DNA of 64,000 bases from Burkholderiales bacterium (GCA_033582675.1 JAVQZY010000020.1:286615-350614), one strand, 5' to 3'. Positions 27,567 through 51,731 are shown, counted from the stretch's first letter. The notes: generated by a model not told the origin, from the letters alone. Made by a program: numbers and translations.

Positions 27567-27575
27567 GGGCGCGTT

Positions 27576-29436: not shown

Positions 29437-29442
29437 GTCGGC

Positions 29443-29450: not shown

Positions 29451-29493
29451 CGGCGTACGATTGGCGCTCCGACCGACGAGAGGAGGACTTGCG

Positions 29494-29919: not shown

Positions 29920-29920
29920 G

Positions 29921-29937
29921 GGGCGCCGAAAGCGCCC
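29921..29937. terminator. Short GC hairpin between convergent genes.
   Basis: GGGCGC-cgaaa-GCGCCC, directly after ACT stop 29917-29919. Confidence 0.35.
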
Positions 29938-29942
29938 GGCCG

Positions 29943-32833
29943 TCAGGGCGCCGACGCCGGGTGCGCGTCCCGCGCGGCGAGCGCGCGCGCGAGCGCCTCG
30001 GCGAGGTGAAGCGTCGGGCGGCCGGTGAGCGCCTCGATCTGCTCCCGGCAGGAAAAGCCGTCCGCGACGATGAGCGTCGCAGGCGATGTTCGTCGCACCT
30101 CGGGTAGCAGCGAGCGCTCGGCGATCCGGACCGACGCGCCGTAGGTCTCGCGGCGAAAGCCGAAGGCGCCCGCCATGCCGCAGCAGCCGGTGTCCGGAGC
30201 GTGCACCTCCATGCCGGCGGCTTCGAGCAGGGCGAGGTCGGCGGCGATGCCGGCGAGCGCCTTGCGGTGACAGTGGCCGTGTACGAGCGCCCGTCCGCCT
30301 TTCGCCGGCGGCCGCCAGCCGCGCTCAAGGAGCAGCTCGCCGAGCGAGGTGGCGAGCTCAGAGAGCCGCATCGCCTCGGCCTGCCCCGGGAACAGGCGCC
30401 GCAGCTCGTCGCGAAACACCGAAAGGCACCCGGGCTCCAAGACGACGAGAGGCACGCCGGCGCGAACCCTCGGCGCCATCGCCTCGAGGATCCTGCGCAT
30501 CGCCGAGCGCGCAGCATCGAGCATGCCGGCGTCGTAGTACGGTCGGCCGCAGCAGAGCCCCGGCGGCGAAAGCTCCGGGCGGAACCCGGCCGCCTCGAGC
30601 ACCTCGACAGCGGCGACACCCGCTTCGGGCCGGAAATGCCCGGTGAAGGTGTCGGCGAAAACGATCACCGGCTCGCCTTGCCCGACGCGCCGCGGCCGCC
30701 CGCGCGCGGCGAGCGCCGCGCGAAGCGTACGCGCCGCAAGCCGCGGAAGCGGCCGCTCGGCGGCGATTCCGAGCGCCCTCCGCAGGAGCGCGCCGGTGAC
30801 CGGCGCCAAAGCGATCCAATTGGCAAGGCGCGGCAGGCGCGCAAGGAGCGGCGCCCACTCGCCGACGCGCGCGAACGCCGCGACCGCGAGCGGCCGACGC
30901 CGGCGATCATAGTAGTGCGAGAGGAACTCGGCCTTGTAGGCGGCCATGTCGGTGTGCGTCGGGCAGTCGCTCTTGCAGCCCTTGCAGCCGAGGCACCAGT
31001 CGAGCGCCTCGCGCACCGCTTCGCTCTCCCAGCCGTCGGCGATCACCTCGCCGCGCAGCATCTCCTGCAGCAGCCGGGCGCGGCCGCGCGTCGAGTAGCG
31101 CTCCTCGCCCGTCGCGCGATAGCTCGGGCACATCGTGCCGCCGGTGCGCGCGCGGCACTTTCCCATGCCGACGCAGCGCTCGAGCTCCCGCGCGAAGCCC
31201 TCGCCCACCTCGCTCGAAAAATCGAGCCGCGTGGCGAGGGTCACCGGCCGGTACTGCGGCCCGAGCCGCAGGTGCTCGTCGACGCGGTAAACCGCCCCGC
31301 CCGCTGCGACGAGCTTTCCCGGGTTCATGCGGCCGAGCGGATCCCAGATGCGCTTGAACTCGCCGAACGCCTCCATCAACGCCGGGCCGTACATCACCGG
31401 AAGGAGCTCCGCCTTCGCCTGGCCGTCGCCGTGCTCGCCCGAGAGCGAGCCGCCGTATCGCACGACGAGCGCCGCCGCGTCGAACAGAAAGGAGCGCCAG
31501 CGCGCAAGGCCCTCGGGCGTGCGAAGATCGAACGTGATGCGCGCGTGCACGCAGCCGTCGCCGAAGTGGCCGTAGAGCGAGGTGCGATACCCGTAGCGGT
31601 CGACGAGGCGCTGGAACTCGCGCAGGTAGTCGCCGAGCCGCAGCGGATCGACCGCGGCGTCTTCCCAGCCGACCACCGGATCAGGGCCGGGCGTGCCCTT
31701 GAGGTTGAGCGCCGTCGCCGAGGCGCCGGTCTCGCGGATCGTCCAGATGCGCTCGGCGATCGCGCGGTCTTCGAGCAGGCGACCGCCGAGGCGCGCTTGG
31801 AGCGCCCGCGCGCGCTCGATCGCTTCGGCGCGCGTGTCGGCGCCGAACTCGATCATCAGCCAGGCGCCGCCCTCGGGCAGGAGCGCGAGGTCGGCAAGCC
31901 GCAGGCGGCGCTCCCGCAGCCCGCCGACGATTCCGCTGTCCAGTCCCTCGCAGGCGATCGGGCCCGCTTCGAGCACCTGCGGGACGGCGTCTGCCGCGGC
32001 ATAGATGTCGGGAAAGCCTGCGACGAGGAGCACCCGCTCCCGCGGGCTCTTTACCAGCCGCACGAGCGCCTGGAGCACGATCGCGCAGGTGCCCTCGCTG
32101 CCGACCAGCGCCCGCGCCACATGAAAGCCGTTCTCCGGGAGCAGCTGGTCGAGGTTGTAGCCCGACACGCGCCGCTTGATCCTCGGAAACCCCCGCCGGA
32201 TGTGCTCTGCGTAGCGCTCGCGCAGCGCCGCGAGCGCGGCGTAGATCTCGCCCCGCCGGCCGCCGGCGCGCACGATCGCCTCCAGCTCCGCCTCCGAGGT
32301 CGCGCCGCACCAGAAGCGCGCGCCGTCGTAAGTGAGCACTTCCAGCGCTTCGACGTTCTCGACCGTCTTTCCGGCCATCACCGAGTGCGGGCCGCAGGCG
32401 TTGTTGCCGATCATGCCCCCAGCGTGCAGCGCGAGTGCGTCGCCGGATCCGGCGCGAAGGTAAGGCCGTAGCGCTCGGCCTCCGAGCGCAGCGCATCGCA
32501 CACCGCCCCCGGCTCGACGCGCGCAAGGCGCGCTTGCGCGTCCACCTCGAGCACCCGGTCGAGGTATTTCGAGGAATCGATGACGACGGCGACGTTCACC
32601 GACTGGCCGCAAAGCGAGGTGCCCCCGCCGCGCGCAAGCACCGGCGCGCCGTACTCGCGGCAGACGGCGACCGCGGCGACGATGTCCTCGACCGAGCGCG
32701 GCAGCACGACGCCGATCGGCACCTGGCGGTAGTTCGAGGCATCCGAGGCGTAGGCGGCGCGCGCGCCGGCATCGAAGCGCACTTCGCCTTCGACCGCGCG
32801 GCGCAGCGCGGCGTGCAGGCCGGCGTAGTTCAC
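29943..32833 (-). pseudogene. YdiJ-like FAD-linked oxidase fused to an Fe-S / CCG domain (2-hydroxyacid dehydrogenase type), with one frame disruption near 32412.
   Basis: The N-terminal 140 aa lie in ORF 32411..32833 (ARGGGTSLCGQS). The rest lies in ORF 29943..32897 (GMIGNNACGPH, HFGDGCVH, CxxCxxCxxxCP as CLGCKGCKSDCP, CCG motifs). Confidence 0.85.
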
Positions 32834-34835
32834 GGCGCGAGTCTAGCGGGGTCGAGCGTCTCGAGGAGCGGCGGCAGCGGGCAGTCGAGCACCGCACCGA
32901 CGAGCCGCAGAAGCTCGGCCTCCGCGAGCCGGATCCGGCCGTCGTGGGTGGCGGTCGCGAACAGCCCGCGAACGAGGATCGCCTTCTCGAGCGGCCCGAG
33001 CTCGCGCAGCGCTTCGAGCGCCGCCGCGGCGTTCTCCGGCGTTAGCTCACCGGCGCTCCTCGGCTCCAAGCCCATCTCTCTCGCCCCTGCAGCGATCGCG
33101 GCCGCGAGCGCCTCGGCGCGCGCGCCGACCGCGTCCCGGCGCGTGCCCGCGTGCGCGACGAGCGAGACGAGCAGCGCCGCCTGCGGCGCAAGGTCGGCGA
33201 GCCGCCGGTCGCCGGCGACCGGTTTCGGCGGCGGAAAGAGCTGAGCGCGAACGAGCGTAAGGACGACGAATTCGTGCACCGACATGCGCTGGTCGGCGCG
33301 TACGACCGCCTCGAGCGCCCGCACGGCGTCCCGGCGCAGGTCCTCCGGGGCGCCTTTGAGCGCAGCGAGCGCAAGATCGATCGCCGGCAGGTGCGCCGGC
33401 GGCCCGATTCGCGCGGCAAGCGGCGCGATCGCCTCCGCCTGCGCGGCGATCGCTTCGAGCCCTGCGGCGCGCAGCGCCGCGAACTGGCCGCGCCTTGCAT
33501 CCTCGCGGGCAGCGAGCGCGAGCGCAACCAGCACCGCGGGCGCCCCGTGCGGCGTACGCATGCGCGCCTTGAGCTCTTCCGGCAGCGCCGCGAGCAGCCG
33601 CCGCGCGTAATCGACCTTCGCGCCGTCGGTGGTGCCGACGAGCGCGGCGCTCTCGCCCGCCGACCGGCCCCAAGCGCTCGCCGCGTCGCCCGCGCGCCGT
33701 CCGCCGGCGGCCAGTGTCGCCTCGGCGAGCACCGCGGCGATCGCGCTGCGCCGCTCGCCTTCGCGCGCCTGTGCCTGCGCGAGCGCCTGCGCCCGCCGCG
33801 CGCGCTTTCGCGATAGAGGCGCGGCTGGAAATGCGGGTATACGCGGCGGATGCGCTCCTCGATCGGCGGGTGCGTCGCGAACAGCCGCTCGAACCAAAGC
33901 GCGACCGCCTCGGCGAAGAACATGTGCGACAGCTCCTCGGCGTGGCGGTCGCGGATCAGCGTTCCGACCGGTTCGCTCCTCAAGCCGGTCGAGCGCGCCG
34001 GCGACCGCCTCCGGGTTTCGCGTGAACTGCACGCTCGCGGCGTCGGCGAGGAACTCGCGCTGGCGCGCCACCGCCGCCTTGATGAGCCGCGCAAAAAACA
34101 GCCCGACGTAGCCGATCAGGAGCAAGGCGAGCCCGACGGCGAGCAGCGGCCCCGAGCGCGAGCGGCCGTCGCCGCGCCGCGCGCGCAGCAGGAACTCGCC
34201 CACCGAGCCGACGAACACGATGCCCGCGAGCACCCCCAGCATGCGGATGTCGAGCCGCATGTCGCCGTTCAGGATGTGGCTGAACTCGTGGCCGATCACG
34301 CCCTGCAGCTCGTCGCGGTCGAGATGTTCGAGCGCGCCGCGCGTCACCGCGACCACCGCGTCCGACACGGTGTAGCCGGCCGCGAACGCGTTGATGCCCG
34401 GCTCGCCGTCCATCACGTAGGCGGCCGGAACGCGCAGGCCGGCGGCGATCGCCATTTCCTCGACGACGTTCAGGTAGCGGCGCTCGAGCGGATCGGCGGT
34501 GTCGGGCCGCACGCGCGCGCGCGCCGACGAGCTCGGCGACCTTGCGCCCGCCCTGCGCGAGCTTCGCGACGTTCCAGACGCTCACCGCGAGGATCGTCGC
34601 CGCGGTCGCGACCGCGCCCCAGACGTAGACCGCGGCGGCACCAGCCGATAGAGGCCGCCGAACCCCGGGGCGACGAGCGTCGGCGAGCAGCCGGTCGCCG
34701 ACCGCCCAGAGGTACGCGGTCGCGACGACGAGGTCGACGGCGATCACGACGCCTGATGACCGCGGCCGCGTAGAGCAGCACGAGCAGCCTCGTATTGCGC
34801 CGCGCCGTCTCCTGCCGCTCGAAGAACGTCGCCAT
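32830..34835 (-). pseudogene. M48-family (HtpX-like) zinc metalloprotease with a long Ala-rich helical C-terminal domain, with at least 5 frame disruptions.
   Basis: MATFFERQETARRNT start at 34835. TM pieces sit in other frames. HEFSHILNGD is the HExxH motif. FATHPPIEERIRRV lies in the ORF 33042..34094 frame. The C-terminal ~330 aa lie in ORF 32830..34512. Confidence 0.75.
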
Positions 34836-34865
34836 GGCGCGCCGCCCGCTCGCGCGCGACCGGCG

Positions 34866-35454
34866 CTAGCCGAACGAGACCCTCGGCGCCTTGCGCTCCT
34901 CGGCCGATTCGGTCGCCTCGAGCAGCTTCGCTTCGGCGAACCCGGAAAGGCCGGCGACGATCGAATCCGGAAAGGACTCGCGCCGCGTGTTGTACGCCAT
35001 CACCGCGTCGTTGTACGCCTGGCGCGCGAACGCGACCTTGTTCTCGGTCGAGGTGAGCTCTTCCTGCACCTGCAGGACGTCTGGTTCGCCTTCAGGTCGG
35101 GATACGCCTCGAAGAGCGCGAGCAGCCGCCCGAGCGCGCCGCCGAGCGCGCCCTCGGCCTCGGCGAGCCCCTGCATCGCCGCCGCATCGCCCGGCGCGGC
35201 GGCCGCCTTCTGCGCGGCGGCGAGCGCCGCCCGCGCGCCGCGATCGCCGCCTCGAGCGTGTCGCGCTCGTGCGCGAGGTAGCCCTTCGCCGCCTCGACGA
35301 GGTTCGGGACGAGGTCGTAGCGGCGCTTCAGCTGCACGTCGATCTGCGCGAACGCGTTGCGGTAGCGCTCGCGCAGCGCGACGAGGCGGTTGTAAATCGC
35401 GATCCCCGCGACGACGATCGCCGCGAGCACGCCGACGAAGATCCAGATGCCCAT
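34866..35454 (-). pseudogene. lemA: Second LemA-family protein, with two frame disruptions.
   Basis: N-terminus MGIWIFVGVLAAIVVAGIAIYNRLVALRE..QLKRRYDLVPNLVEAAKGY in ORF 35092..35454. C-terminus ELTSTENKVAFARQAYNDAVMAYNT in ORF 34866..35069. Confidence 0.8.
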
Positions 35455-35486
35455 GCCGATCTCCCGAAACGCTGCGCGCGTGCGGG

Positions 35487-35495
35487 TACTATAGC
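35487..35495. promoter_or_regulatory. Shared AT-rich element for divergent promoters: TACTAT on the plus strand, TATAGT on the minus strand.
   Basis: ggtactatagcg. The plus-strand hexamer ends 5 nt before ATG 35498, suggesting a leaderless mRNA. The minus-strand TATAGT lies about 30 nt before lemA ATG 35454. Confidence 0.4.
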
Positions 35496-35497
35496 GT

Positions 35498-36753
35498 ATG
35501 CGCGATCGGCTCTGTCGTCTGCTGCGCGCGCAGCCGCACGAACTCGGCGCGCTCGCCGCCGCGTTCGCGTACTTTTTTCTCCTGCTCGCCGCGTACTACG
35601 TGCTGCGGCCGGTGCGCGACGCGCTCGCGGTGCAGGCGGGCGCGGCGCGTCTGCCGTGGGTGCTCACCGCGGTTTTCGCCGCGATGCTCGCGCTCGTGCC
35701 GCTCTGGGGCTGGCTGTGCGCGCGGTTTGCGCGCGCGCCGCTCCTTGCGGCGACGTACGCATGTTTCGCGCTCGACCTGTGCGCGTTCTGGCTCGCGCTG
35801 CGCGGCGGCGCCGGACCGCTGCTCGCCGGCGGTTTCTTCGTCTGGGTGAGCGTGTTCAACCTGTTCGCGGTGTCGGTGTTCTGGAGCTTCATGGCCGACC
35901 TGTTCGACCGCGCGCAGGCCGCGCGCGCTCTTTCCCGCGATCGCCGCAGGCGGCAGCTGCGGCGCGATCGCAGGTCCCGCGTTGACCGCGCCAGGCGGCG
36001 CCCGCGCTCGGGCCGGCGAACCTGCTCGTCGTATCGGCGACGCTGCTTGCGGCCGCGATCGGCTGCATCCTCGCGCTCGCGCGCTGGGCGCGCCGGCACC
36101 CGCGCGCGGGCGAGCCGGCCGCCGAGACGCCGCTCGGCGGCTGCGATCCTCGCCGGCGCGCGCGCCGCGCTCACGTCGCCGTTTCTGCTGGGCATCGGCG
36201 GCTGGCTGCTCTGCTACACCGTGCTCTCGACCGCGCTCTACTTCCAGCAGGTGCAGATCGTCGGCGCCGCGATCGCCGATCCGGCCGAGCGCACGCGGCT
36301 CTTCGCGGCGGTGGATCTCGCGGTGAACGCGCTCGCGCTCGTCGTTCAGCTCGGCGCGACCGCGCGCCTCACGCTTCGGCTCGGCACCGGCTGGATGCTC
36401 GCGCTGATGCCGCTTCTTCGCTCGCCGGCTTCGCGCTGCTCGGCGCCGCGCCGGTTCTCGCGGTGCTCGTCGCCTTCGGCATCGCGCGGCGCGTGGGCGA
36501 ATTCGCGATCTCGAAGCCCGTGCGCGAGGCGCTCTACACCGGGGTGTCGCGCGAGGCGCGCTACAAGGCGAAGAACTTCATCGACACCGTCGTCTATCGC
36601 GGCGGCGACGCGCTCGCGGGCTGGCTCGTGCAGGCGCTGCGCGCGCTCGGGCTCGGGGTCTCGGGGATCGCGTTCGCGATGCTGCCGGTCGCGGCCGCCT
36701 GGGTCGCCGTGAGCTTCTGGCTCGGCCGCCGCGAGGCGCGCGCCCAGGCATAG
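35498..36753 (+). pseudogene. TLC/ATP:ADP-antiporter-like (MFS-type) membrane transporter, with at least 4 frame disruptions.
   Basis: AAYYVLRPVRDAL and GGFFVWVSVFNLFAVSVFWSFMADLF are typical of the family. Further real-looking segments sit in other frames (LFPAIAAGGSCGAIAGPALTA). The tail is ORF 36463..36753. Confidence 0.6.
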
Positions 36754-36756
36754 AAT
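36751..36756 (+). promoter_or_regulatory. Candidate -10 hexamer TAGAAT.
   Basis: It ends 8 nt before ATG 36765, with no SD visible. It also contains the stop codon of the upstream gene. Confidence 0.4.
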
Positions 36757-36764
36757 CGCGACCG

Positions 36765-37677
36765 ATGAACCCTCGGCGCCGGGCGACCCTGCGATCGCTC
36801 GCCGCGCTCGCTGCCACCGTGACCGCCGGTCCCCTGAATTCCGCGCCGGGCGCGATGCACACGCGGCCGATACCCGCGAGCGGCGAGCCGCTGCCCGTCG
36901 TCGGTCTCGGCACTTGGCGGGTATTCGACGTCGGCGACGACGCCGGGGCGAAGGCGACGCTCGGCGAAGTGCTGCGCATTTTCCATGCCGGCGGCGGGCG
37001 CCTGATCGATTCCTCGCCGATGTACGGCGCGGCCGAATCGGTGGTGGGCGAGCTGTGCGACGCGCTCGGGCTCTGCGCGTCGCTTTTCCTCGCGACCAAG
37101 GTCTGGAGGAGCGGGCGAGCGGAAGGCGTGCGGCAGATGGAGACCTCGTTGCGCCGGCTGCGGGTGCCGGCGATCGACCTCATGCAGGTGCACAACCTCG
37201 TCGACGTCGCCGCGCACGCGGACACGCTCGCCGATGGAAGGCTGCGGGCCGCGCGCGCTGACATCGGCATCACGCACTACAGCGCCGCCGCCTACGGCGA
37301 GGTGGAACATTGGCTCGCGGCGCGGCGCTGGGACTTCCTGCAGATCAACTACGCTCGCCGAGCGCGATGCCGAGCGCCGCCTGCTGCCGATTGCGCGCAG
37401 CGCGGGATCGCGGTGATCGCCGAACCGGCCGTTCGCCGAGGGAGCGCTCTTTCGCCGCGTGCGCGGAAAGCCGCTTCCCGCCTGGGCGCAGGAGGCCGGC
37501 ATCGCGAGTTGGGCGCAGTACTTCCTCAAGTGGATCCTCGGCCATCCGGCGGTGACCTGCGCGATTCCGGGCACCGGCCGGCCCGAGCACATGCGCGACA
37601 ACCTCGCCGCGGGCGTCGGGACGCTGCCCGACGAGGCGCTGCGCCGGCGCATGACCGCGTATTTCGACGCGCTGTGA
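36765..37677 (+). pseudogene. Aldo/keto reductase with a twin-arginine signal, with at least 5 frame disruptions.
   Basis: MNPRRRATLRSLAALAATV is Tat-like. GLGTW..IDSSPMYG..ATKVW. A compensated shift at 37235-37258 hides WKAAGRAR. LAERDAERRLLPIARSAG and the tail GKPLPAWAQ..TAYFDAL lie in other frames. Confidence 0.75.
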
Positions 37678-38478
37678 AAGCGCTCGCGCTCGCCTTGCTG
37701 CTTGCGTGCGCGGGCGCGCTCGCGCAGCCGCAGGAGGGCGTCAAGGTCGAGAAAAGCCGGCTGCTGCTTCTTCCCGCCTCGACCGTCGAGCGCAGCGCCG
37801 CGCAGCAGTACGCGCAGCTGATGCGCCAGGCGGCGCAGAAAGGCGTGCTCAACACCGACCGGCGCCAGGTCGAGCGGCTGCGCGCGATCGCGCGCGCGCT
37901 GATTCCGCACTCGGGGCGGTTCAACAAGGACGCCGAAAAATGGCGTTGGGAGGTGAACCTCATCCAGTCGCGCACCGTGAACGCGTTCTGCATGCCGGGC
38001 GGCAAGATCGCGTTCTTTTCGGGGATCCTCGATGCGCTCGCGCTCACCGACGACGAGGTCGCGGCGGTGATGGGGCACGAGATCGCGCACGCGCTGCTTG
38101 AGCACGGCCGCGCGCGCATGTCCCGAGCAGGTGCTGAAGAACGTCGGCATCGCGGTCGCCGCGACGGTGTTCAACCTCGGGCAGTTCTCGACCGAGCTGC
38201 TCGCGCACGCGGCCAATCTCGCGGTGAGCCTGCCCTACGCCCGACGGCAGGAGACCGACGCCGACTTGGTCGGCATGGAGCTTGCCGCGCGCGCCGGTTT
38301 CGATCCGCGCGCCGCGGCCGAGGTCTGGCGCAAGATGGCGCGGCTTGCCGAGCGCACCGGCCGCGGCCAGCCGCCGCAGTTCCTCTCGACGCACCCGTCG
38401 CACGAGACGCGCCTGAAGGAGATCGAGGCGAACCTGCCGCGGGTGTTGCCGCTCTACGAGGCCGCCCGGCGGCGCTGA
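37674..38478 (+). pseudogene. M48-family periplasmic metalloprotease (YcaL/LoiP-like), with one frame disruption near 38115.
   Basis: GTGA overlap at 37674-37677. Signal peptide KALALALLLACAGALA; NAFCMPGGKIAFFSGIL; MGHEIAHALLEH. The tail with ETDADLVGMELAARAGFDP lies in ORF 38098..38478. Confidence 0.8.
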
Positions 38479-38487
38479 AGGTCCCCG

Positions 38488-40167
38488 CTACGCCGCGCCG
38501 GCCAGATGCCGGCCGGCGATCCAGCCGAAGGTCATCGCAGGTCCCAGGGTGATGCCGGGGCCGGGGTAATTCCCCCCATGATCGAGAGCGCGTCGTTTCC
38601 GACCGCATAGAGCCCGGGGATCGGGCGGCGATTCGCATCGAGCGCCTGCGCGTTCGCGTTCGTGACGATGCCGGCGTAGGTGCCGAGGTCGCCCACGTGC
38701 ACCTGCACCGCGTAGAAGGGCGGCGTCTCGATCGGCGCGATGCAGGGGTTCGGCCGGATGTCCGGATCGCCGTAGAAGCGGTTATAGGCGGTGCCGCCCT
38801 TGCCGAACGCCGGGTCCGAACCCGTTCTCGCGTGGCGGTTGTATTCGGCGATCGTGCGCTCGAGGCCCGCCGCGTCCACCCCGCAGGCGGCGGCGAGCTG
38901 CCGCGACCGTCCGGCCGCGCTTGAGGTAGCCGCTCGCGAGGTGCGGCGCAAGCGGCAGCGGCCGCGGTTTGACGAACCCGAGCCCGTAGGCGCGGATCGC
39001 GCGGTGGTCAGCGACGAGCCAGGCGGTGACCTCGCGCTCGCCCGGCGAGGCGCGAAAGAGCGCCTGGATGAAGTCGTGGTAGGAGTTCGCCTCGTTCACG
39101 AAGCGCTCGCCCCTTGCGGGTCACCGCGATCACGCCGGGTTTCGCCCGATCCACGAAATGCGGGAAAAGCCCGAAAGAGCCGTCGCCCCGGGGCACTTTC
39201 GATACCGGAACCCAGGCTGCCGGCTGAGGCAGCGACTCGTCCACTTTCGCGCCGGCCGCCTCGGCGAGCCGCCAGCCCGTCGCCGGTGTTCGCAGGCGGC
39301 GCAGGCGAGAAATGCTCCGCGTGCGCAAAAAGCCGCGCGCGGCGCTCGGGCGTCATGCGGAAATCCGCCGCAGGCGAGCACCACGCCGCGGCGCGTCCTC
39401 ACTTCGACCTCGCGGTCGCCGCGGCGAACGAGAGCGCCGCGCACCGCCCGGATTCGACGAGGAGCCGCACGACCGGGGCCGAGTCGCCAGAGTTCCGACC
39501 CCCGCATCGAGCGCGGACCTGAGCAGCCGCGCCAGCAAGCGCGTTGCCGTTGGTCGAGCCGCACACCGCGGCCGTAGAAAAGGCGCGCGAGCGCCGTGGC
39601 CGAGGAGCCGTCTGCGCGACGAACGCCGCCGAGCGTGCGACTTCGACCAGCGCATGAAGTGAACGAGCTTCCGCACCCGAGCCGATCATCACGCCGAAGA
39701 CGGTGAGCTCCGGCAAGCGGCGGCGCGAGCTTCGCGAACATCGGCCCGAGCGCGCGCCCGTCGAAGGGAGCGGCGACGATCGAGCGCCCGCCGGGCTTTC
39801 CGCCCGGCGCATCCGGGTGGTAGTCGGAAAAAGTGGCCGAAGGCTCGAACCGGACCGCGGTCTCGCGCTGGAACCACTCCACCATGCGCGGACCCGCAGC
39901 GAGAAACGCGTTCACCCGCTCGGGATCGAATTTCTCGCCCGTCTCGTGAAGGAGGTAGGTCGCCGCCTCCTCGACGCTGTCGGCGACACCGATCCCGGCC
40001 TGCATCGGGTGGTTCGGGATCCAGAGCCAGCCCCCTGAGCGCGCGGTGGTGCCGCCGAAGACCGGCGCCTTTTCGGCGACGATCACCGAAAGGCCGTGCT
40101 TCGCCGCGGTCACCGCCGCGGCGAGGCCGCCGGCGCCCGAGCCGGCGACGAGGACGTCGCATTCCAT
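38488..40167 (-). pseudogene. FAD-dependent oxidoreductase (KstD / fumarate-reductase flavoprotein-like), with several frame disruptions.
   Basis: MECDVLVAGSGAGGLAAAVTAAKHGLSVIVAEK..FGGTTARSGG in ORF 39130..40239. C-terminal GLYAVGND lies in ORF 38532..38951. The final GNYPGPGITLGPAMTFGWIAGRHLAGAA* lies in another frame. Confidence 0.75.
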
Positions 40168-40233
40168 CGCGAGCGCCGATCTTACCCCCGGCGCTGCTAT
40201 CTTCGCGGTTCGATCGCGAAACGGAGAACGCAG

Positions 40234-41139
40234 ATGCAAATCGCCTTCGTGGGGCTCGGGTTGATGGGCGCGCCGATCGCGGCGAGGCTCCTCGCGCAGG
40301 TCACGCGCTTTCGGTCTTCGACCTGCGGCGCGAGGCTGCCGAGCCGCTACTTTCCGCAGGCGCTCGCTGGTCGGAAAATCCGGCGCGCGGCGCCGAACTC
40401 GGTCTTCGCTTCGCTTCCCGGGCCGCAGGAGGTCGAGTCATGGGCCCCGCGCTTTCTCGGTTCGCTCGCCCCCGGTGCCGCCTGGTTCGATCTCAGCACC
40501 AATTCGCCGCAGACCGTGCGGCGAATCCACGCCGAAGCCGCCGCGCGCGGCATCCGCTTTCTCGACGCGCCGGTGAGCGGCGGGCCGCGGGGCGCGCATA
40601 GCGGGCGGCTCGCGCTCTGGGTGGGCGGCGATCGGGATGCGTACGAGCGCGCGCGGCCGGTGCTCTCGGCGTTCGCCGATCGGCCTTTCTACGTCGGCCC
40701 GGCCGGCGCGGGCACGGTGGCGAAGCTCGCGCACAACGCCGCAAGCTTCATGGTGCAGACGGCGCTCGCCGAGGCGATGACGCTCGGGGTGAAGGCCGGG
40801 GTGGAGCCGCTTACGCTCTTTCGCGCCCTTCGCCAGGGCGCGACCGGGCGCGCGCGTACCTTCGACCGGCTCGCGGAGCAGTTTCTGCCCGGACGGTTCG
40901 ATCCGCCGGCGTTCGCGCTGCGGCTCGCCCACAAGGACATGCGGCTTGCGCTGGAACTCGCGCGCTCGCTCGGCGTGCCGATGCGCGCGGGCGAGCACGC
41001 GCTCGCGGAACTCGAGGAAGCGCTCGCGCGCGGCTGGGGCGAGCGCGATGCGCGCGTCGCGATGACGCTTCAGGAGGAGCGCGCCGGGGTCGCCGTGCGC
41101 GTCTCGCCCGAGGCGCTCGCGGCGGCGCTTGCCGAGTGA
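40234..41139 (+). pseudogene. 3-hydroxyisobutyrate-dehydrogenase-family NAD(P) oxidoreductase, with a compensated pair of frame shifts around 40290-40400.
   Basis: MQIAFVGLGLMGAPIAARLL, then about 35 aa readable only in another frame (HALSVFDLRREAAEPLLSAGARW), then back to SLPGPQEVE..DAPVSGG..GAGTVAKLAHN. Confidence 0.8.
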
Positions 41140-41188
41140 ATCCCGCTCTCCGACCTCACTGCCGATCGCTCCGCGACTCTTTCGCGCC

Positions 41189-42125
41189 GTGACCCCGATC
41201 AGCCCCTCGCAGCACCGCTTCGGCATAGCCGTGATGGTTTTCTGCGCCTTTCTCTGGAGCACTGCGGGCGTCGCGATGCGCGCGGCGTCGGTCACGAACG
41301 GCTGGGAAGCGACGTTCTGGCGCTCGCTTTTTCTCTGCGGCGTCGTCGGCGCCTACCTCCTTGCGCGGCATCGCGGCCGGGCGCCGGCGCGCCTTCGCGC
41401 GATGGGCTGGCACGGCGCGGTCTCGGGCGTCTGTTGGGCGACGATGTTCACCGCGTTCATGCTCGCCCTCTCGCTCACCACGGTCGCGAACACGCTGGCG
41501 ACGATGGCGACGATGCCGTTCTTCGCCGCCCTCGCCGGCCGGCTCTTACTCGGCGAGCGGATCGCGCCTCGGACCTGGGCGGCGATGGCGGCCGCCGCCG
41601 TCGGCATCGCCGCGATGTTTCACGAGGCTTTCGCGAGCGGCACGATCGCGGGCAGCGTCGTCGCGCTCGCGGTCCCGCTCGCGGCAGCGGCGAACACGGT
41701 GACGGTGAAGCTCGCGCGCGGGCAGGTGGATCTCGTTCCCGCGCTCCTCGTCGGCGGCGCGATCTCGGTCGCGCTCGCCGCTCCGTTCGCGCTTCCGCTT
41801 TCGGCCGACGCGCGCGACCTCGCGATATTTGCCGCGCTCGCAGATCTTTCAGCTCGCGCTGCCCTGCGCGCTTCTCGTCGCCGTGGCGATGCCGCGGCTC
41901 TCGGCCGCGGAGATCGGCCTGCTGTCCCTACTCGAAGTGGTGCTCGGGCCGCTCTGGGTCTGGCTCGCCTGGCGCGAGCACCCGGGGGCGGCGGCGCTCG
42001 CCGGCGGCGCCGTCGTCATCGCGGCGCTCGCGGCAAACGAGGCGGTCGCCCTCTGGCGCGAGCGGCGCGCGGCGGCGGATGCGCTCAGCCGCGCTTCCTC
42101 GCGATCGCCTTCGCGATCGCGGTAA
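41189..42125 (+). pseudogene. EamA/DMT-family transporter, with one frame disruption near 41835. The start is uncertain (GTG 41189).
   Basis: Ten hydrophobic segments. The first half lies in ORF 41129..42154 (FCAFLWSTAGVAMR). The second half lies in ORF 41829..42125 (QLALPCALLVAVAMPRLSAAEIGLLSLLEVVLGPLWVWL). Confidence 0.7.
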
Positions 42126-42542
42126 AGCGCCCCGTCCTTTTAGGCCGGCGCTAGCGCGCGCTCAAGCGGCGCCAGCGCGTTGCCGCCCCGGCGGGGCCGA
42201 GCCGCTGCTCGCGCGCAAGCTGTGTGGGCAGGCCCCCGGCGGCTCGACGCACACCTCTTTCCCCGCGCCGCGCCCGCGAGGCGAGAGAAACGCGACGTCG
42301 GCGGCCGATTCGGCCGCGATCACGCTGGACTCGACCGGCCGCTCGAGCGGCTCACCTTCCATATCGAAGGCGCAGATCGCCTCGCCCCGATTTGAGCGCC
42401 ATGTTGCGACAGATCGGCTCGCCCATGACGCCGAGAAAGCCCGAGCATCCGCCCCCCGGCAGGTGCACTCGACAGCACCTGCGAACGCTTCGGATCGACC
42501 GGCGTGCGCTCTCCAGGCGGTCCGCCCGCCGGCTGAACGCTG

Positions 42543-43087
42543 CTAGGCCTTGCGCCCGTATTTCCCGACGAGCACCGCCTTTGCGATCGCGTTCGCGTTC
42601 ACCATGAAGCCGGCAAGGGAGGCCGTCGCCCCGGCGACGTCCAGCTTTTCGGTCTTGAGCGCGTAGACCGTCAAACACGTATCGGTGCGGCTTGTCGCCG
42701 ACCGGCGGGCAGGGCCCGCCCCAGCCGGGAGAGCCGAAGTCGGTCGAGACCTGCACCGCCCCCTCGGGAAGCTTCGAGCCGTCCGCGCGACCAGCGTCCT
42801 TTTCCAACCGCGTTACGGAGGCCGGGATGTTCACCACCACCCAGTGCCACCAGCCGGCGCCGCCGGTGGGCGCATCCGGGTCGTGGCAGAGCAGCGCAGA
42901 AGCTCTTCGTTTCCTCGGGCGCACCGGTCCATTCGAGCGCGGGCGAGATGTTCTCCCCTTTGCAGCCGAAGCCGTTGTACACCTGTTCCATCGCGAGCGT
43001 GCCGTTCGGCCGGAAATCGGGGCTCGTGAGCCGGAACTTCGGGCGCGCCGGCCGCGTCGTGCGCTTTTTCGCTTTTTTCGCGGGCAT
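42543..43087 (-). pseudogene. YbhB/YbcL (PEBP/Raf-kinase-inhibitor-like) family protein, with two frame disruptions.
   Basis: FRLTSPDFRPNGTL..NISPALEW in ORF 42671..43120. HDPDAPTGGAGWWHWVVVNIPA..GPCPPVGDKPHRY lies in the ORF 42352..43257 frame. The tail TVYALKTEKLDV..GKYGRKA* lies in a third frame. Confidence 0.8.
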
Positions 43088-43119
43088 CGGGATTCCTCCT
43101 CTGGTCGAATCGGGCGCCA

Positions 43120-43125
43120 ATTGTA
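43120..43125 (-). promoter_or_regulatory. Candidate -10 hexamer TACAAT (minus strand).
   Basis: attgta on the plus strand, about 32 nt upstream of ATG 43087, with a GAGGAGGAA SD in between. Confidence 0.35.
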
Positions 43126-43173
43126 GCCAAGCGCTGCGCGCGAAACGTCACGCCCAGCCCGCCGCAAGGCGCG

Positions 43174-43179
43174 CATAAT
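43174..43179 (+). promoter_or_regulatory. Candidate -10 hexamer CATAAT.
   Basis: 22 nt before ATG 43202, with GAGGA in between. Confidence 0.3.
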
Positions 43180-43201
43180 GCGCCCTCGGAACGAGGATCC
43201 C

Positions 43202-44131
43202 ATGAAACCCGCCGCCACCCGCACTCGACTCGAGGGCGTGCTCGCCCCGGTGATCACCCCGTTTCGCCGCGACCTCTCGCCGGACCCCGACCGGTTCGTC
43301 CGTCACTGCCGCTGGCTGATGCGAAGCGGCTGCGCGGGCCTTGCCGTCTTCGGTACGAACAGCGAGGCGAACTCGCTTTCGGTCGAGGAAAAGCTCGAGC
43401 TGCTGGAGGCGCTCGTCAAGGCCGGAATCCCCCCCTCGGTGCTCATGCCCGGCACCGGCGCCTGCGCGCTCCCCGACGCGGTGGCGATGACCCGCGAGGC
43501 GGTGCGCCTCGGCTGCGCGGGCGTCCTGATGCTCCCGCCGTTCTACTACAAGGGGGTGTCGGACGAAGGCCTCGCGCGGTTTTTCTCCGAGGTGATCGAG
43601 CGGGTGGGCGACGAGCGGCTGCGCCTGTACCTCTATCACATCCCTGCGGTCTCCGGCGTGCCGATCAGCGCGGAGCTGATCGAGCGGCTCCTCGATCGCT
43701 ACCCCGGGATCGTCGCCGGCGCAAAGGACTCTTCGGGCGACTGGCAGAACACGCGCGCCTGGCTCGAGCGCTTCGCCGAGCGCAGTTTCGACGTGTTTCC
43801 GGGAAGCGAGGCGTTCCTGCTCCAGGGCTTGCGCGCAGGCGCCAAAGGGTGCATCTCGGCCACCGCGAACATCAACCCGGGCGCGATCGACCGGGTCTTC
43901 CGCACCTGGCGCTCGCCGGAAGCGGAGAAGCTTCAGGCCGCGATCGCGGCGACGCGCGCGATCGTGCAGAAGGTGCCGATGATCCCGGCGCTCAAGGCGG
44001 TGACCGCCCATTTTGCGAACGACCCGGAGTGGCGTCGGGTGCGCCCGCCGCTCGTGGAACTTGCTGCCGAGCAGGAACGCCAGGTGATCACCGAGCTGAA
44101 GGCGGTCGGCTTTTCGATGCCGGGCTTGTAG
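43202..44131 (+). CDS. Dihydrodipicolinate-synthase-family (class I aldolase/dehydratase) protein. An alternative start is at 43178.
   Basis: LEGVLAPVITPF..AVFGTNSEANSLSVEEK..YYK..YHIP. 309-317 aa depending on the start. Confidence 0.85.
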   Translation: MKPAATRTRLEGVLAPVITPFRRDLSPDPDRFVRHCRWLMRSGCAGLAVFGTNSEANSLSVEEKLELLEALVKAGIPPSVLMPGTGACALPDAVAMTREAVRLGCAGVLMLPPFYYKGVSDEGLARFFSEVIERVGDERLRLYLYHIPAVSGVPISAELIERLLDRYPGIVAGAKDSSGDWQNTRAWLERFAERSFDVFPGSEAFLLQGLRAGAKGCISATANINPGAIDRVFRTWRSPEAEKLQAAIAATRAIVQKVPMIPALKAVTAHFANDPEWRRVRPPLVELAAEQERQVITELKAVGFSMPGL

Positions 44132-44185
44132 CCCGCGGCGGCTGCACGCCGCCCTTGACGAGTTGCTGGAAGGAGGAGGAGACGA

Positions 44186-45152
44186 ATGATCGCGAAAACG
44201 CTGTTCGCTCTATGTGCCGCCTGCGTCGCGCTCGGCGCCGCGGCGCAGCCTTTCCCCGCGCGCCCGGTGAAGCTCGTCGTTCCGCACGCACCGGGCGGCA
44301 ACTCCGACACGTTCGGGCGGATCCTCGCGGCGAAACTCTCCGAGCGCCTCGGCCAGCAAGTGATCGTCGAAAACCGCGCCGGCGCGGGCGGCACGGTGGC
44401 GAGCGAATTCGTCGCCCGCCAGGCGCCCGACGGCTACACGCTCCTCGTCGGCGACAACGGCACCCACGGCATCGCGCCGACCCTTTACGCCAAGCTGCCG
44501 TACAAGGTGCCGCAGGACTTCACCTCGATCACGCTCGCGGCCACTTTTCCGACGCTGCTCCTTGCGCACCCGTCGCTTCCGGCGAAGAACGTCGCCGAGT
44601 TCGTCGCGCTGGTGAAGGCGAACCCGGGCAAGTACACGTACTTCGTCGGCGGGCACCGGCAACGGCTCGCACCTCACGGTGGACATGTTCCTTCAGGCCG
44701 CAGGCGGCCTGCAGATGGTGCACGTGCCTTACAAGGGCGGCGCGCCCGCGGTGCAGGCGCTTCTTGCGGGCGACGTGCAACTGACCGCGGTCAGCGTCAA
44801 CACCGGGCTTCCGCACATCAAGTCGGGCAAGGTGCGCGCGCTCGCGATCGCCTCGCTCAAGCGCTCGCCGGCGGTGCCCGAGGTGCCGACGCTCGCCGAG
44901 CAGGGCATAAAGGGAGCGGAAGCCGACAGCTGGCTCGCGATCTTCGGCCCGGCGGGTATCCCGGAGCCGATCGTCGCCAAGCTGCACCAGGAGATCGCCG
45001 CAGCGCTCAACGATCCGCCGATCCGCGAGCGGCTTTCGGGGATCGGGCTCGAGGTGGTCGCCTCGACCCCGGCGCAGCTCGCGGCGATGCTGCCGGGCGA
45101 AGTCGCGAAGTGGGGCGAGGCGGTGCGCCGCTCCGGCGCCCGCGTGGACTGA
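44186..45152 (+). pseudogene. Bug/TctC-family substrate-binding protein, with a frame disruption near 44650.
   Basis: FPARPVKLVVPHAPGGNSD..VENRAGAGG in ORF 44186..45277. The C-terminal half from HLTVDMFLQAAGGLQMVHVPYKGGAP lies in ORF 44679..45152. Confidence 0.88.
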
Positions 45153-46032: not shown

Positions 46033-47410
46033 ATGGGCCGCACGCTTTTCGAGAAGGTCTGGGACGAACACGTCGTCGCGCGCCTCGAAGGCGGCGCGGA
46101 ACTCGTTCACGTCGACCGGCATCTGCTCCACGACCTCGGCGGCGCGCAGGCGCTCGCCGAGCTTCGCGCGCGCGGGCTCGCGGTGAGAAACCCCGAGCTC
46201 ACGTTCGCGGTGCCCGATCACCTGGTCGGCACCGAACCCGGCCGGCGCGGCACGCGCGATTGGGCGGTAGCGCTCGTCGATGCGCTTCGCGACGAATGCG
46301 CGCGCGCCGGCATCCGGCACTTCGACCTCGATTCCGAAAACCAGGGGATCGTGCACGTCGTCGCGCCGGAACTCGGCCTTTCGCTTCCCGGCGCGCTCGT
46401 CGTCTGCGGCGACAGCCACACCTGCACGAACGGCGCGCTCGGCGCGATCGGCTTCGGCATCGGCGCGAGCGAACTCGTGCAGGTGCTCGCGACCCAGTGC
46501 CTCGTGCAGAAGCGGCCGAAGACGATGCGCGTGCGCTTCGAAGGCGAGCTCGCGCGCGGCGTGTTCGCGAAGGACATGATCCTCGCGTTGATCGGGCGCC
46601 TCGGAGCCGCGGCGGGAACGGGCTACGCGGTGGAATACGCAGGCCCCGCGGTGGCCGCGCTCGACATGGAAGCGCGCATGACGCTCTGCAACCTCTCGGT
46701 CGAGCTCGGCGCGAGAATCGGCATGGTCGCGCCGGACGAGACGACCTTTTCGTGGCTTGCCGGCCGGCCTTTTGCGCCGCAAGGCGCGGCGTTCGAGCGC
46801 GCGGTCGAACACTGGCGCACGCTCGCAAGCGACGCCGATGCGCGCTTTGACCGCGAGGTCGTGGTCGACTGCGCGGCGCTCTCGCCGCAGGTCACCTGGG
46901 GCACGAGCCCCGAGGACACGATCGGCGTGGACGAGACGATCCCGGTCCCGCGGCGACGACGCAAAACGCGCCGCGCTCGACTACATGGGCCTTCGCGCAG
47001 GCGAGCGCATCGCCGGAACGCGCATCGATCGCGTCTTCATCGGCTCGTGCACCAACGCGCGGCTTTCCGACCTTCGCATCGCCGCCGAGGTGGCAAGGCG
47101 CGGCCGCGTCGCAAAGCATGTCGTCGCCCGGGTCGTGCCCGGCTCGATGCGCGTCAAGCGCGCCGCCGAGCGCGAGGGACTCGACGAAATCCTCCGCGCC
47201 GCCGGGTTCGAATGGCGCGAGCCGGGCTGTTCGATGTGCGTCGGCGCAAACGGCGAGCTCGTTGAACCGGAAGCCCGCTGCGTTTCCACCTCGAACCGCA
47301 ACTTCGTCGGCCGCCAGGGTCCGCGCGCCCGCACGCACCTTGCGAGTCCGGCGACCGCCGCCGCCGCGGCGCTCGCCGGCGAAATCGCCGACGTGCGCGG
47401 TCTGCTTTGA
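46033..47410 (+). pseudogene. Aconitase-family hydro-lyase large subunit (LeuC-like), with a frame disruption near 46945.
   Basis: TLFEKVWDEHVV..VDRHLLHD..GDSHTCTNGALGA in ORF 46033..47265. The tail with [32 protein letters not shown] lies in ORF 46757..47410. Confidence 0.88.
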
Positions 47411-47411
47411 G

Positions 47412-48072: not shown

Positions 48073-48118
48073 CCCCCAGCGCCCCTATTCGGTGCAAAGA
48101 CCTTCGACGGAATTTCTC

Positions 48119-51722: not shown

Positions 51723-51731
51723 GCGCGGATG

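What the first reader, a model, noticed from the sequence alone, without database searches (positions are those of the whole stretch)
32411..43087. Ten consecutive genes all frame-disrupted, while neighbouring 10-12 kb tracts are flawless
From 32.4 to 43.1 kb every gene needs one or more frame corrections. These are the YdiJ-like oxidase, M48 protease, LemA, TLC-like transporter, Tat-AKR, a second M48 protease, an FAD oxidoreductase, a HIBADH-family dehydrogenase, an EamA transporter and a PEBP protein. By manual tracing this tract alone has roughly 30 disruptions. In contrast, 3.2-9.1 kb, 10.05-21.9 kb, 22.1-32.4 kb and 52.3-64 kb contain long intact ORFs of up to 796 aa with none. Further clusters lie at 1-3.2 kb and 46.9-51.9 kb. 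Within broken genes each fragment still shows clean family motifs and no internal stops. Several shifts are compensated within 25-110 nt. For example, 37235-37258 encodes WKAAGRAR only in the +1 frame, and about 40290-40400 in the HIBADH-family gene is similar. This pattern fits patchy indel error, such as low-coverage or unpolished long-read sequence or a strain-mixed assembly, better than old pseudogenes. Only the scoAB remnant at 9.1-10 kb looks truly decayed. A recently degrading accessory region cannot be excluded.
Basis: seen in the sequence. Interest (0 to 1): 0.6.

Follow-up and report, generated by a model that had tools for sequence, protein, structure and literature searches.

The report
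Assembly indel errors, not pseudogenes
The ten "broken" genes are intact in nature: about 44 one-base insertions and deletions were added to this stretch when the metagenome-assembled genome was built, so this is a data-quality artefact and not gene decay.

Summary
All ten genes between 32.4 and 43.1 kb are frame-disrupted. The indel-rich tract runs from 32416 to 44641 and holds 44 window-specific indels (31 insertions, 13 deletions; all 1 bp except one of 2 bp).

The window comes from a 393-kb contig of a Burkholderiales MAG. A 94%-identical relative (GCA_026416295.1) has every one of these genes intact. Removing the indels gives full-length, gap-free proteins that are 93-99.6% identical to the relative's.

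Four contigs assembled independently from run SRR15826901 (Logan) are 98.7-99.9% identical to the window. They lack all 23 indels they cover and have none of their own.

Substitution density and the synonymous/non-synonymous ratio are normal. The same defect hits the essential genes murD, mraY and murF at 1-3.2 kb. Indel density tracks local strain SNP density, and three insertions carry both strain alleles side by side.

Verdict: these are consensus errors in strain-heterogeneous or poorly polished patches of an assembly. Biological interest is low.

The parts
32416..44641 (.). Indel-rich tract: 44 window-specific frameshifting indels (31 insertions, 13 deletions; all 1 bp except a 2-bp deletion at 37352).
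   Evidence: blastn against relative L081/L084 and Logan contigs L082, L083, L087; three-way polarisation.
29943..32833 (-). YdiJ-like FAD/Fe-S oxidase. A 1-bp deletion at 32416 (C6 to C5) splits off the N-terminal FAD_binding_4 domain.
   Evidence: tblastn frames -3/-1. The gene is intact at 963 aa in Logan L082 and 965 aa in relative L081. The source record annotates only an 823-aa fragment, MDW8469358.1.
32830..34835 (-). M48 metallopeptidase a (667 aa when corrected): 6 indels (33806, 33982/5, 34516, 34636, 34671, 34754).
   Evidence: The corrected product aligns 1-667 with the relative's at 92.7% identity and no gaps.
34869..35454 (-). LemA (196 aa): 2 deletions (35080, 35230).
35498..36753 (+). 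The first three insertions are the Logan allele and the relative's allele in tandem.
   Evidence: The gene is intact at 417 aa in L083 and L081.
36765..37677 (+). Tat-signal aldo/keto reductase (304 aa): 5 indels (37234, 37260, 37352 [2 bp], 37399, 37420).
   Evidence: The gene is intact at 304 aa in Logan L083.
37674..38478 (+). M48 metallopeptidase b (267 aa): a single inserted C at 38122.
   Evidence: Removing that one base gives a protein that exists exactly in the Logan assembly (P0122). The source record annotates a 126-aa fragment, MDW8469363.1.
38488..40239 (-). FAD-dependent oxidoreductase (580 aa): 15 indels. This is the hottest spot, with 14 in the kilobase 38843-39843.
   Evidence: The corrected protein is 97.2% identical to the relative's with no gaps, and 89-90% identical over 100% coverage to other full-length homologues.
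40234..41139 (+). HIBADH-family dehydrogenase (301 aa): a compensating pair, deletion at 40292 and insertion at 40401.
41189..42140 (+). EamA/DMT transporter: insertions at 41842 and 42133. In-frame 3-bp differences from the relative at 41178 and 42069 were not counted as errors; whether they are real could not be tested (no second assembly covers them).
42141..42542 (.). Non-genic remnant between EamA and PEBP with 3 inserted bases (42242, 42245, 42439). This shows the indels are not confined to coding sequence.
42543..43087 (-). PEBP (YbhB/YbcL-type, 180 aa): insertions at 42672 and 42899.
   Evidence: Intact at 180 aa in Logan L087. The stitched protein matches Pfam PBP positions 6-135 of 135.
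44186..45152 (+). TctC/Bug-type binding protein: inserted C at 44641, the last event of the tract and outside the finding.
1..3148 (-). Second cluster, in essential cell-wall genes: murD (7 insertions: 22, 80, 207, 246, 717, 733, 894), mraY (1472, 2366) and murF (2-bp deletion at 3147-8).
   Evidence: The fragments hit consecutive positions of the NCBIfam murD, mraY and murF models. Aligned to intact relative L085. Logan L086 is identical to the window over 2927-8209 apart from this 2-bp deletion and one SNP.
46948..51827 (.). Third cluster: leuC-like (about 46948), leuD-like (about 47792), GT2 glycosyltransferase (about 48404, 48677, 48810), two further shifts (about 50098, 50411) in a downstream ORF that I did not test against any family, and about 51827.
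   Evidence: Frame HMM. leuC, leuD and GT2 fragments hit consecutive positions of the same NCBIfam models. The other sites rest on the HMM only. No second assembly was obtained for this cluster.

Best explanation
The frame disruptions are consensus errors in the deposited assembly. They are not mutations carried by the organism.

Shown: the window is part of a 393-kb contig of a Burkholderiales metagenome-assembled genome.

Inferred: in a few patches of 3-12 kb the consensus was built badly. The likely reason is that the sampled population holds two or more haplotypes differing by about 0.1-1% in those patches. Noisy reads from the different strains were collapsed into one consensus and short-read polishing failed there. 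The consensus step then inserted or dropped single bases. In some places it kept both alleles of a strain SNP next to each other.

Shown: the underlying genes are intact and under normal purifying selection.

The steps concerning read technology, coverage and polishing are inferred. They cannot be checked without the reads.
For: 1. Source. The YdiJ fragment is 100% identical to MDW8469358.1 on a 393,184-bp contig labelled 'MAG: Burkholderiales bacterium'. That record annotates gene fragments of 823, 126 and 115 aa.

2. Intact relative. Contigs of GCA_026416295.1 (L081/L084) are 94.4% identical in DNA and fully syntenic, with all the genes intact.

3. Indel versus substitution density. The tract has 41 frameshifting indels in 9.8 kb, against 1 in the adjacent 4.6 kb. 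Substitution density is not raised (49.9 against 58.9 per kb).

4. Correction restores the genes. Deleting or restoring just those bases gives single-frame, gap-free, full-length alignments at 92.7-99.6% amino-acid identity for seven genes.

5. An exact match. The corrected M48b protein exists exactly in an independent assembly.

6. Independent assembly. Four Logan contigs from SRR15826901 cover 22 kb of the window at 98.7-99.94% identity. They lack all 23 window indels that they span and have no indels of their own.

7. Polarisation. With the relative as outgroup, 16 of 16 testable indels are window-unique. Of the 36 substitutions between the window and L083, 27 are derived on the Logan lineage.

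8. Spectrum. In the tabulation of 52 events (which still includes the two intergenic indels at 43155 and 44169 that later showed to be real), there are 37 insertions and 15 deletions. All are 1-2 bp, and 24 of the 37 insertions are not homopolymer extensions.

9. Constraint is unchanged. Codons differing from the relative are 225 synonymous and 113 non-synonymous in the tract, against 88 and 33 in the clean part of YdiJ.

10. Essential genes are hit. murD has 7 insertions, mraY 2 and murF a 2-bp deletion. The murF deletion is the only indel difference from Logan contig L086, which otherwise differs from the window by one SNP in 5.3 kb.

11. Link to strain heterogeneity. Window-versus-Logan SNPs per kb and indels per kb by segment are:
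- 2927-8209: 0.19 and 0.19
- 23707-32410: 0.11 and 0
- 32411-34053: 1.8 and 1.8
- 35323-39033: 9.7 and 3.2
- 42064-44745: 1.1 and 2.6
. Logan contigs also break at 2927, 34053, 35323, 39033, 42064 and 44745, that is, inside or at the edges of the clusters.

12. Both alleles in tandem. At 35926/7, 35990/1 and 36142/3 the window carries the Logan allele and the relative's allele side by side. The chance per random insertion is 1.5%, giving P about 1e-4 for 3 of 7 and 1.3e-3 for 3 of 15.

13. Precedent. Long-read consensus indels cause frameshifted gene calls in MAGs (PMC9262707). Nearby allelic variants introduce indel errors into collapsed assemblies (PMC8445201).
Against: - No reads, coverage or quality values are available, so the error is inferred and not observed.
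- I could not establish the sequencing platform, or whether SRR15826901 is the MAG's own sample.
- In 35.3-39.0 kb the Logan contig is a different haplotype (1.3% divergent). There it shows only that a very close strain has intact genes, not that this haplotype does.
- The segment 39.03-42.06 kb, which includes the 15-indel FAD gene, is compared only with the 94% relative.
- The insertion bias and the many non-homopolymer insertions are not the textbook nanopore signature of homopolymer deletions.
- The both-alleles idea was formed after seeing the data and explains only 3 of 15 testable insertions.
Confidence: 0.92

Rival explanations
1. Genuine recent pseudogenisation. A strain in this population is losing an accessory gene block, and other blocks, through real frameshift mutations.
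For: - Ten consecutive, non-essential-looking genes are hit.
- The window haplotype in 35.3-39.0 kb really is distinct from the Logan contig (36 SNPs), so a separate lineage exists.
- The scoAB region of the same contig looks truly decayed, so some decay does occur in this genome.
Against: - The essential genes murD, mraY and murF carry the same lesions.
- Where the Logan haplotype is nearly identical to the window (1-3 SNPs per contig), it still lacks the indels.
- On the window branch the indel-to-substitution ratio is at or above 1 (16 indels against 12 substitutions). From general knowledge, natural bacterial pseudogenes have far fewer indels than substitutions and a deletion bias with a broad size range. 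Here the events are 1-2 bp only and insertions outnumber deletions by about 2.5 to 1.
- There are no nonsense mutations and no larger deletions, and the synonymous/non-synonymous ratio is unchanged.
- The both-alleles-in-tandem insertions have no obvious mutational origin.
Confidence: 0.04
2. The same kind of artefact, but caused only by locally low coverage or unpolished long-read consensus, or by a single poor read bridging the stretch. Strain heterogeneity plays no part.
For: - Patch sizes of 3-12 kb are on the scale of single long reads.
- 12 of 15 testable insertions are not both-allele sites.
- In 42.06-44.75 kb the SNP density is only 1.1 per kb but the indel density is 2.6 per kb.
- Indel-only error with normal substitution density is typical of long-read consensus (PMC9262707).
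Against: - SNP density against the independent assembly is 10-90 times higher inside the patches than in the clean flanks.
- The short-read contigs fragment exactly there.
- Three insertions reproduce both strain alleles (P about 1e-4).
- Low coverage and strain heterogeneity are not mutually exclusive.
Confidence: 0.3
3. A biological process that tolerates or generates frameshifts: programmed ribosomal frameshifting or transcriptional slippage, or a mismatch-repair-deficient mutator lineage.
For: 10 of the 15 deletions lie in short homopolymers, as slippage would give.
Against: - More than 50 sites share no motif.
- 24 of 37 insertions are outside homopolymers.
- Events also occur in non-coding DNA (42242, 42245, 42439).
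- They are confined to patches and not spread genome-wide.
- The closest relatives and the same population encode uninterrupted genes.
Confidence: 0.01

Closest known systems
Frameshift-causing indel errors in long-read (nanopore or PacBio CLR) genome and MAG consensus sequences (PMC9262707; the gene-fragmenting errors addressed by tools such as Kastor, PMC12007338)
   Same: - Only small indels, with normal substitution level.
- Genes are split into fragments that each keep clean family similarity.
- The defect disappears in a short-read assembly of the same population.
- The record is a MAG with a very long contig (393 kb).
   Different: - The spectrum here is insertion-biased, and most insertions are outside homopolymers. 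The textbook nanopore error is a homopolymer deletion.
- The errors are confined to 3-12 kb patches and not spread evenly.
- The platform is unknown.
Indel artefacts from collapsing two haplotypes into one consensus (shown for a diploid eukaryote in PMC8445201: nearby allelic variants cause wrong read alignments and indel errors)
   Same: - Indel density follows local polymorphism.
- Three insertions hold both alleles in tandem.
- The clean flanks are the stretches where the haplotypes are identical.
   Different: - Here the 'haplotypes' are co-existing bacterial strains in a metagenome, not homologous chromosomes.
- Only a minority of the events can be tied to a known SNP.
True pseudogene tracts in decaying bacterial genomes (for example Mycobacterium leprae, Burkholderia mallei, Bordetella pertussis; from general knowledge)
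   Same: Runs of neighbouring genes with disrupted frames while other regions are intact.
   Different: - There are no stop-codon mutations, no larger deletions, no IS elements and no relaxed constraint.
- Essential genes are also hit.
- The lesions are absent from the same population in another assembly.
- The scoAB remnant at about 8.95-9.96 kb, with indels of 1-12 bp, shows what real divergence or decay looks like in this same contig.

Membership tests
Assembly/consensus indel artefact | The indels are absent from an independent assembly of the same population. | tested here: met
   23 of 23 covered indels are absent from Logan SRR15826901 contigs L082, L083, L086 and L087. There are no Logan-specific indels in 22 kb.
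Assembly/consensus indel artefact | Removing the indels restores full-length, conserved ORFs without other defects. | tested here: met
   Seven genes align end to end with the relative's proteins at 92.7-99.6% identity and no gaps. The corrected M48b is an exact database match.
Assembly/consensus indel artefact | The error profile is dominated by 1-bp indels with no excess of substitutions. | tested here: met
   Of 52 tabulated events, 50 are 1 bp and 2 are 2 bp. Mismatch density is 49.9 per kb in the tract and 58.9 per kb in the flank.
Assembly/consensus indel artefact | Indispensable single-copy genes are affected in the same way. | tested here: met
   murD, mraY and murF are split. murF is intact in a Logan contig that differs from the window by one SNP. 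Essentiality is from general knowledge. A second copy elsewhere in the genome was not checked.
Assembly/consensus indel artefact | Raw reads disagree with the consensus at the indel sites, and depth or quality is low there. | not testable with these tools
   No reads or quality values are available.
Collapsed-strain (haplotype-mix) consensus error | The errors coincide with polymorphic stretches of the population. | tested here: met
   SNPs per kb against the Logan contigs are 0.1-0.2 in clean stretches and 1.1-9.7 in the tract. Logan contigs break inside the clusters.
Collapsed-strain (haplotype-mix) consensus error | Individual errors can be traced to specific variant sites. | tested here: inconclusive
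   3 of 15 testable insertions are both alleles in tandem (P about 1e-3 to 1e-4). The rest are not, and the hypothesis was formed post hoc.
Genuine pseudogene tract | The lesions are fixed in the organism's DNA. | tested here: not met
   They are absent from near-identical Logan contigs. This is not a proof for the 39.0-42.06 kb stretch, which is compared only with the 94% relative.
Genuine pseudogene tract | Relaxed selection, a mixed lesion spectrum (stops, deletions of many sizes) and a deletion bias. | tested here: not met
   The synonymous/non-synonymous counts are unchanged. There are no in-frame stops after correction. Insertions outnumber deletions 37 to 15 and all events are 1-2 bp.

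The most novel reading that the evidence does not exclude
Some of the indels are real and mark a minority strain in which this accessory block (stress and protease, transporter and oxidoreductase genes) is being inactivated. Alternatively, the tandem both-allele insertions record an unknown mutational outcome of recombination between co-existing strains. The stretch 39.0-42.06 kb, including the 15-indel FAD gene, has no same-population comparison, so this cannot be formally excluded there.
Probability: 0.03. Interest if true: 0.45.

Novelty: not a real feature. Interest (0 to 1): 0.08.

Why it matters
This matters for data hygiene and not for biology. A public MAG record carries at least 54 spurious indels in the compared parts of this 64-kb window. 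Further shifts that could not be compared with a second assembly lie at 46.9-51.8 kb and about 21938. The indels break essential genes and produce fragment proteins that are now in protein databases (for example MDW8469358.1, MDW8469363.1 and MDW8469364.1).

Anyone counting pseudogenes, estimating genome decay, or building protein families or pangenomes from this MAG would be misled.

The case also gives a practical diagnostic for separating such artefacts from real decay without reads:
- indels of 1-2 bp only
- normal dN/dS
- essential genes also hit
- co-location with strain SNPs

The scoAB remnant in the same contig serves as a contrast: it shows the mixed indel sizes and lower identity expected of real divergence or decay, though no second assembly covers it.

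Tried and rejected
- A genome-contig scan with the MFS fragment found only relatives at 60% identity or less. It was useful for synteny (L042, L072) but not for a DNA-level comparison.
- Exact look-ups of the source's own proteins failed (DHDPS with the long start; P0001). The source contig is evidently not in that index.
Seven of eight corrected proteins were not exact matches in the collection, because the strains differ by a few residues or the start calls differ.
- The clusters of the relative's FAD, HIBADH, EamA, LemA and M48a proteins contain no Logan members. The FAD homologue search returned only cluster representatives at 90% identity or less. So 39.03-42.06 kb has no same-population comparison.
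- Look-ups for proteins flanking the third cluster (45157-46029, 51336-51722, 52652-55039) found nothing. That cluster therefore rests on the frame HMM and NCBIfam split hits only.
- A literature search for the run and assembly accessions found nothing, so the platform and sample are unknown.
- I first suspected that the 64-nt repeat at 1227-1290 / 1385-1448 was an assembly stutter. I rejected this because the relative has the same duplication.
- I first counted 43155 and 44169 as intergenic errors. I rejected this because the Logan contig agrees with the window there.
- The HMM candidate at 11736 is not a convincing frameshift.

Full report
**Observation**

The window has about 71% G+C, so mechanical ORF lists are uninformative. 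I traced the coding frame in two ways. The first was GC3 periodicity and a codon-usage hidden Markov model trained on the window itself. The second was homology.

The HMM finds same-strand frame changes without a stop codon in three clusters: 0.2-3.1 kb, 32.4-44.6 kb and 46.9-51.8 kb. It finds essentially none in 3.8-21.9 kb, 22-32.4 kb or 52-64 kb. There is one isolated shift near 21938, where a 2-hydroxyacid dehydrogenase continues as ...[13 protein letters not shown]... in another frame.

A local tblastn of ORFs from 80 distantly related loci confirmed that the YdiJ-like, M48, LemA, MFS, AKR and second M48 genes each continue in a different frame.

**Source and close relatives**

A search with the long YdiJ fragment gave three useful results.
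- A 100% match that is only 823 aa long, on a 393,184-bp contig labelled 'MAG: Burkholderiales bacterium' (MDW8469358.1). This is the source record, and its gene call is truncated by the frameshift.
- A 95%-identical, full-length 965-aa protein from another MAG, GCA_026416295.1.
- Within the first protein's cluster, a 963-aa full-length version assembled by Logan from run SRR15826901.

The relative's contig (L081/L084) is syntenic across the whole tract. It has intact genes for YdiJ (965 aa), M48 (667), LemA (196), MFS (417), M48 (267), the FAD oxidoreductase (580), HIBADH (301) and EamA (310), followed by DHDPS, TctC and a PEP-mutase-like gene.

**The indels**

blastn of the window against this relative gives one 14.4-kb alignment at 94.35% identity. 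Listing every gap shows 41 frameshifting indels between 32416 and 42182, against one in 27843-32410. That is 4.18 against 0.22 per kb. Mismatch density is not raised (49.9 against 58.9 per kb).

I edited only those bases out of, or into, the window. Each gene then aligns as one uninterrupted, gap-free, full-length match to the relative's protein at 92.7-99.6% identity. The corrected proteins match Pfam AKR, PEBP, LemA and HIBADH-type models over their full lengths.

Events 37234 and 37260 bracket WKAAGRAR. Events 40292 and 40401 bracket the HIBADH stretch.

**Independent assembly of the same population**

Four Logan contigs from SRR15826901 could be recovered.
- L082 equals window 23707-34053 at 99.93% identity. 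It differs by four SNPs and three 1-bp indels (32416, 33806, 33985), which are exactly the window's frameshift sites.
- L083 equals window 35323-39033 at 98.7% identity. It differs by 36 SNPs and 12 indel events, all at the sites found with the relative. Its MFS (417 aa), AKR (304 aa) and M48 (267 aa) genes are intact. I found it because the window's M48b protein, after removal of the single inserted C at 38122, is an exact match to a Logan protein.
- L087 equals window 42064-44745 at 99.6% identity. It differs by three SNPs and seven 1-bp insertions in the window (42133, 42242, 42245, 42439, 42672, 42899, 44641). Its PEBP gene is intact at 180 aa.
- L086 equals window 2927-8209. It differs by one SNP and a 2-bp deletion in murF.

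In total, 23 indel events are present only in the window and none is present only in the Logan contigs, over 22 kb.

A three-way comparison with the relative as outgroup shows that 16 of 16 testable indel events are window-unique. Of the 36 substitutions between the window and L083, 27 are derived on the Logan lineage. So the substitutions are ordinary strain polymorphism and not errors in the window.

Two 1-bp differences from the relative (43155, 44169) are shared by the window and the Logan contig, so they are real intergenic differences between species. The 1-bp (28700) and 6-bp (30298) differences in the flank are likewise shared. This gives a baseline for natural indels in this lineage: a few per 10 kb at 6% divergence, and none of them disruptive.

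The revised tract is 32416-44641 with 44 window-specific events (31 insertions, 13 deletions). Of these, 43 lie inside the finding's coordinates.

**Why this is error and not decay**

1. Essential genes are hit. The 1-3.1 kb cluster lies in the dcw operon. murD is in four pieces that hit NCBIfam TIGR01087 positions 1-94, 96-145, 150-304 and 320-359. mraY hits TIGR00445 positions 3-291 and 292-319. murF hits TIGR01143 positions 1-203 and 210-418. Against the relative's intact operon (L085), the window has nine 1-bp insertions and one 2-bp deletion in these three genes, and no frameshifting indel in the next 5.8 kb. These genes are indispensable for a bacterium with peptidoglycan (general knowledge). 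The murF lesion is absent from a Logan contig that is otherwise identical to the window.

2. The spectrum is wrong for decay. In the tabulation of 52 events, 50 are 1 bp and 2 are 2 bp. Insertions outnumber deletions 37 to 15, and 24 of the 37 insertions do not extend a homopolymer. That tabulation still includes 43155 and 44169, which later showed to be real. Natural bacterial pseudogenes show a deletion bias, a broad range of indel sizes, and nonsense mutations as well (general knowledge). The same contig offers a contrast. At about 8.95-9.96 kb (the scoAB CoA-transferase remnant; the genes are intact in the relative), the indels range from 1 to 12 bp and identity drops.

3. Constraint is unchanged. 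Codons differing from the relative are 225 synonymous and 113 non-synonymous in the tract, against 88 and 33 in the clean part of YdiJ.

4. The indels also occur in the non-genic stretch at 42141-42542.

**Probable cause**

Indel density follows strain polymorphism. SNPs per kb between the window and the Logan contigs, paired with indels per kb, are:
- 2927-8209: 0.19 and 0.19
- 23707-32410: 0.11 and 0
- 32411-34053: 1.8 and 1.8
- 35323-39033: 9.7 and 3.2
- 42064-44745: 1.1 and 2.6

(I corrected the first L082 figures by hand, because the SNP at 32052 lies in the flank.)

The short-read contigs also break at 2927, 34053, 35323, 39033, 42064 and 44745. These positions are inside or at the edges of the clusters, which is what strain variation does to de Bruijn graph assemblies.

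At three insertions (35926/7, 35990/1, 36142/3), deleting one base of a pair gives the Logan allele and deleting the other gives the relative's allele. The window therefore holds both alleles of a strain SNP in tandem. In a simulation of random insertions, this pattern arises in 1.5% of cases. That gives P about 1e-4 for 3 of 7 in that segment and 1.3e-3 for 3 of 15 overall. This test was devised after seeing the data.

Published work describes the general phenomena. Indels in long-read consensus cause frameshifted gene calls in MAGs unless they are polished (PMC9262707). Nearby allelic variants cause misalignment and indel errors when haplotypes are collapsed (PMC8445201).

I therefore think the patches are places where co-existing strains differ. 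The assembler collapsed them, and consensus building or polishing failed there. Purely low coverage remains a reasonable alternative or contributing cause.

**Limits**

- No reads are available.
- The platform, and the relation of SRR15826901 to the MAG's sample, are unknown.
- The stretch 39.03-42.06 kb, including the FAD gene with 15 indels, is compared only with the 94% relative.
- The third cluster rests on the frame HMM and on split NCBIfam hits for the leuC-like, leuD-like and GT2 genes. No second assembly was obtained for it.

**Verdict**

This is not a biological feature, and its interest is low except as a warning about this record.

Noticed in passing
window 1-3148: The essential dcw genes murD (7 one-base insertions), mraY (2) and murF (a 2-bp deletion, A5 to A3, at 3147-8) are frameshifted. 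murE, ftsI, ftsL, rsmH and mraZ (3840-8779) are intact.
   Followed up: yes
window 1227-1290 and 1385-1448: A 64-nt direct repeat (92% identical, 158 nt apart) duplicates the 3' end of mraY in the mraY-murD spacer. The relative L085 has the same duplication, so it is a real, conserved feature and not an assembly stutter. Its function is unknown.
   Followed up: partly
window about 8949-9960: This is the scoAB (CoA-transferase) region. Compared with the relative's intact CoA_trans genes, the window shows indels of 1, 2, 3, 4, 5, 9 and 12 bp and lower identity, and the frame HMM calls much of it non-coding. It looks like genuine decay or divergence, unlike the 1-bp-only tracts. No Logan contig covers it.
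   Followed up: partly
window about 21938 (gene 21114-22056, +): An isolated frameshift lies near the 3' end of a D-2-hydroxyacid dehydrogenase gene. The conserved ...[17 protein letters not shown]... motif continues in another frame.
   Followed up: partly
window 46948-51827: This is a third frameshift cluster. It affects a leuC-like gene (NCBIfam positions 4-308 then 321-465 of 472), a leuD-like gene (1-126 then 138-200 of 202), a GT2 glycosyltransferase in four pieces, a downstream ORF that I did not test against any family, and a site near 51827. No second assembly was obtained.
   Followed up: partly
window 42141-42542 compared with L084 11030-12521: The window lacks about 1.2 kb that the relative has between EamA and PEBP (a second NAD_binding_2 gene and a DUF1036 gene). 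Only a 78%-identical remnant is left at 42228-42432. Logan contig L087 shares the shorter form, so this is a real difference between the two species.
   Followed up: yes
window 2927, 34053, 35323, 39033, 42064, 44745: The ends of the independent short-read (Logan) contigs fall inside or at the edges of the indel clusters. An uninterrupted 10.3-kb contig covers the clean flank. This is consistent with strain variation in the patches.
   Followed up: partly
window 36423-36425: Three adjacent window-specific substitutions (CGC against TTT in both Logan and the relative) sit next to the 1-bp deletion at 36417-9. This is probably one local misalignment or consensus event and not three separate mutations.
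   Followed up: no
source record (outside the window): Fragment proteins from the broken genes are deposited as ordinary proteins (MDW8469358.1, 823 aa; MDW8469363.1, 126 aa; MDW8469364.1, 115 aa). One of them, the 115-aa fragment, even serves as the representative of a 90% cluster that contains the full-length 580-aa protein.
   Followed up: partly
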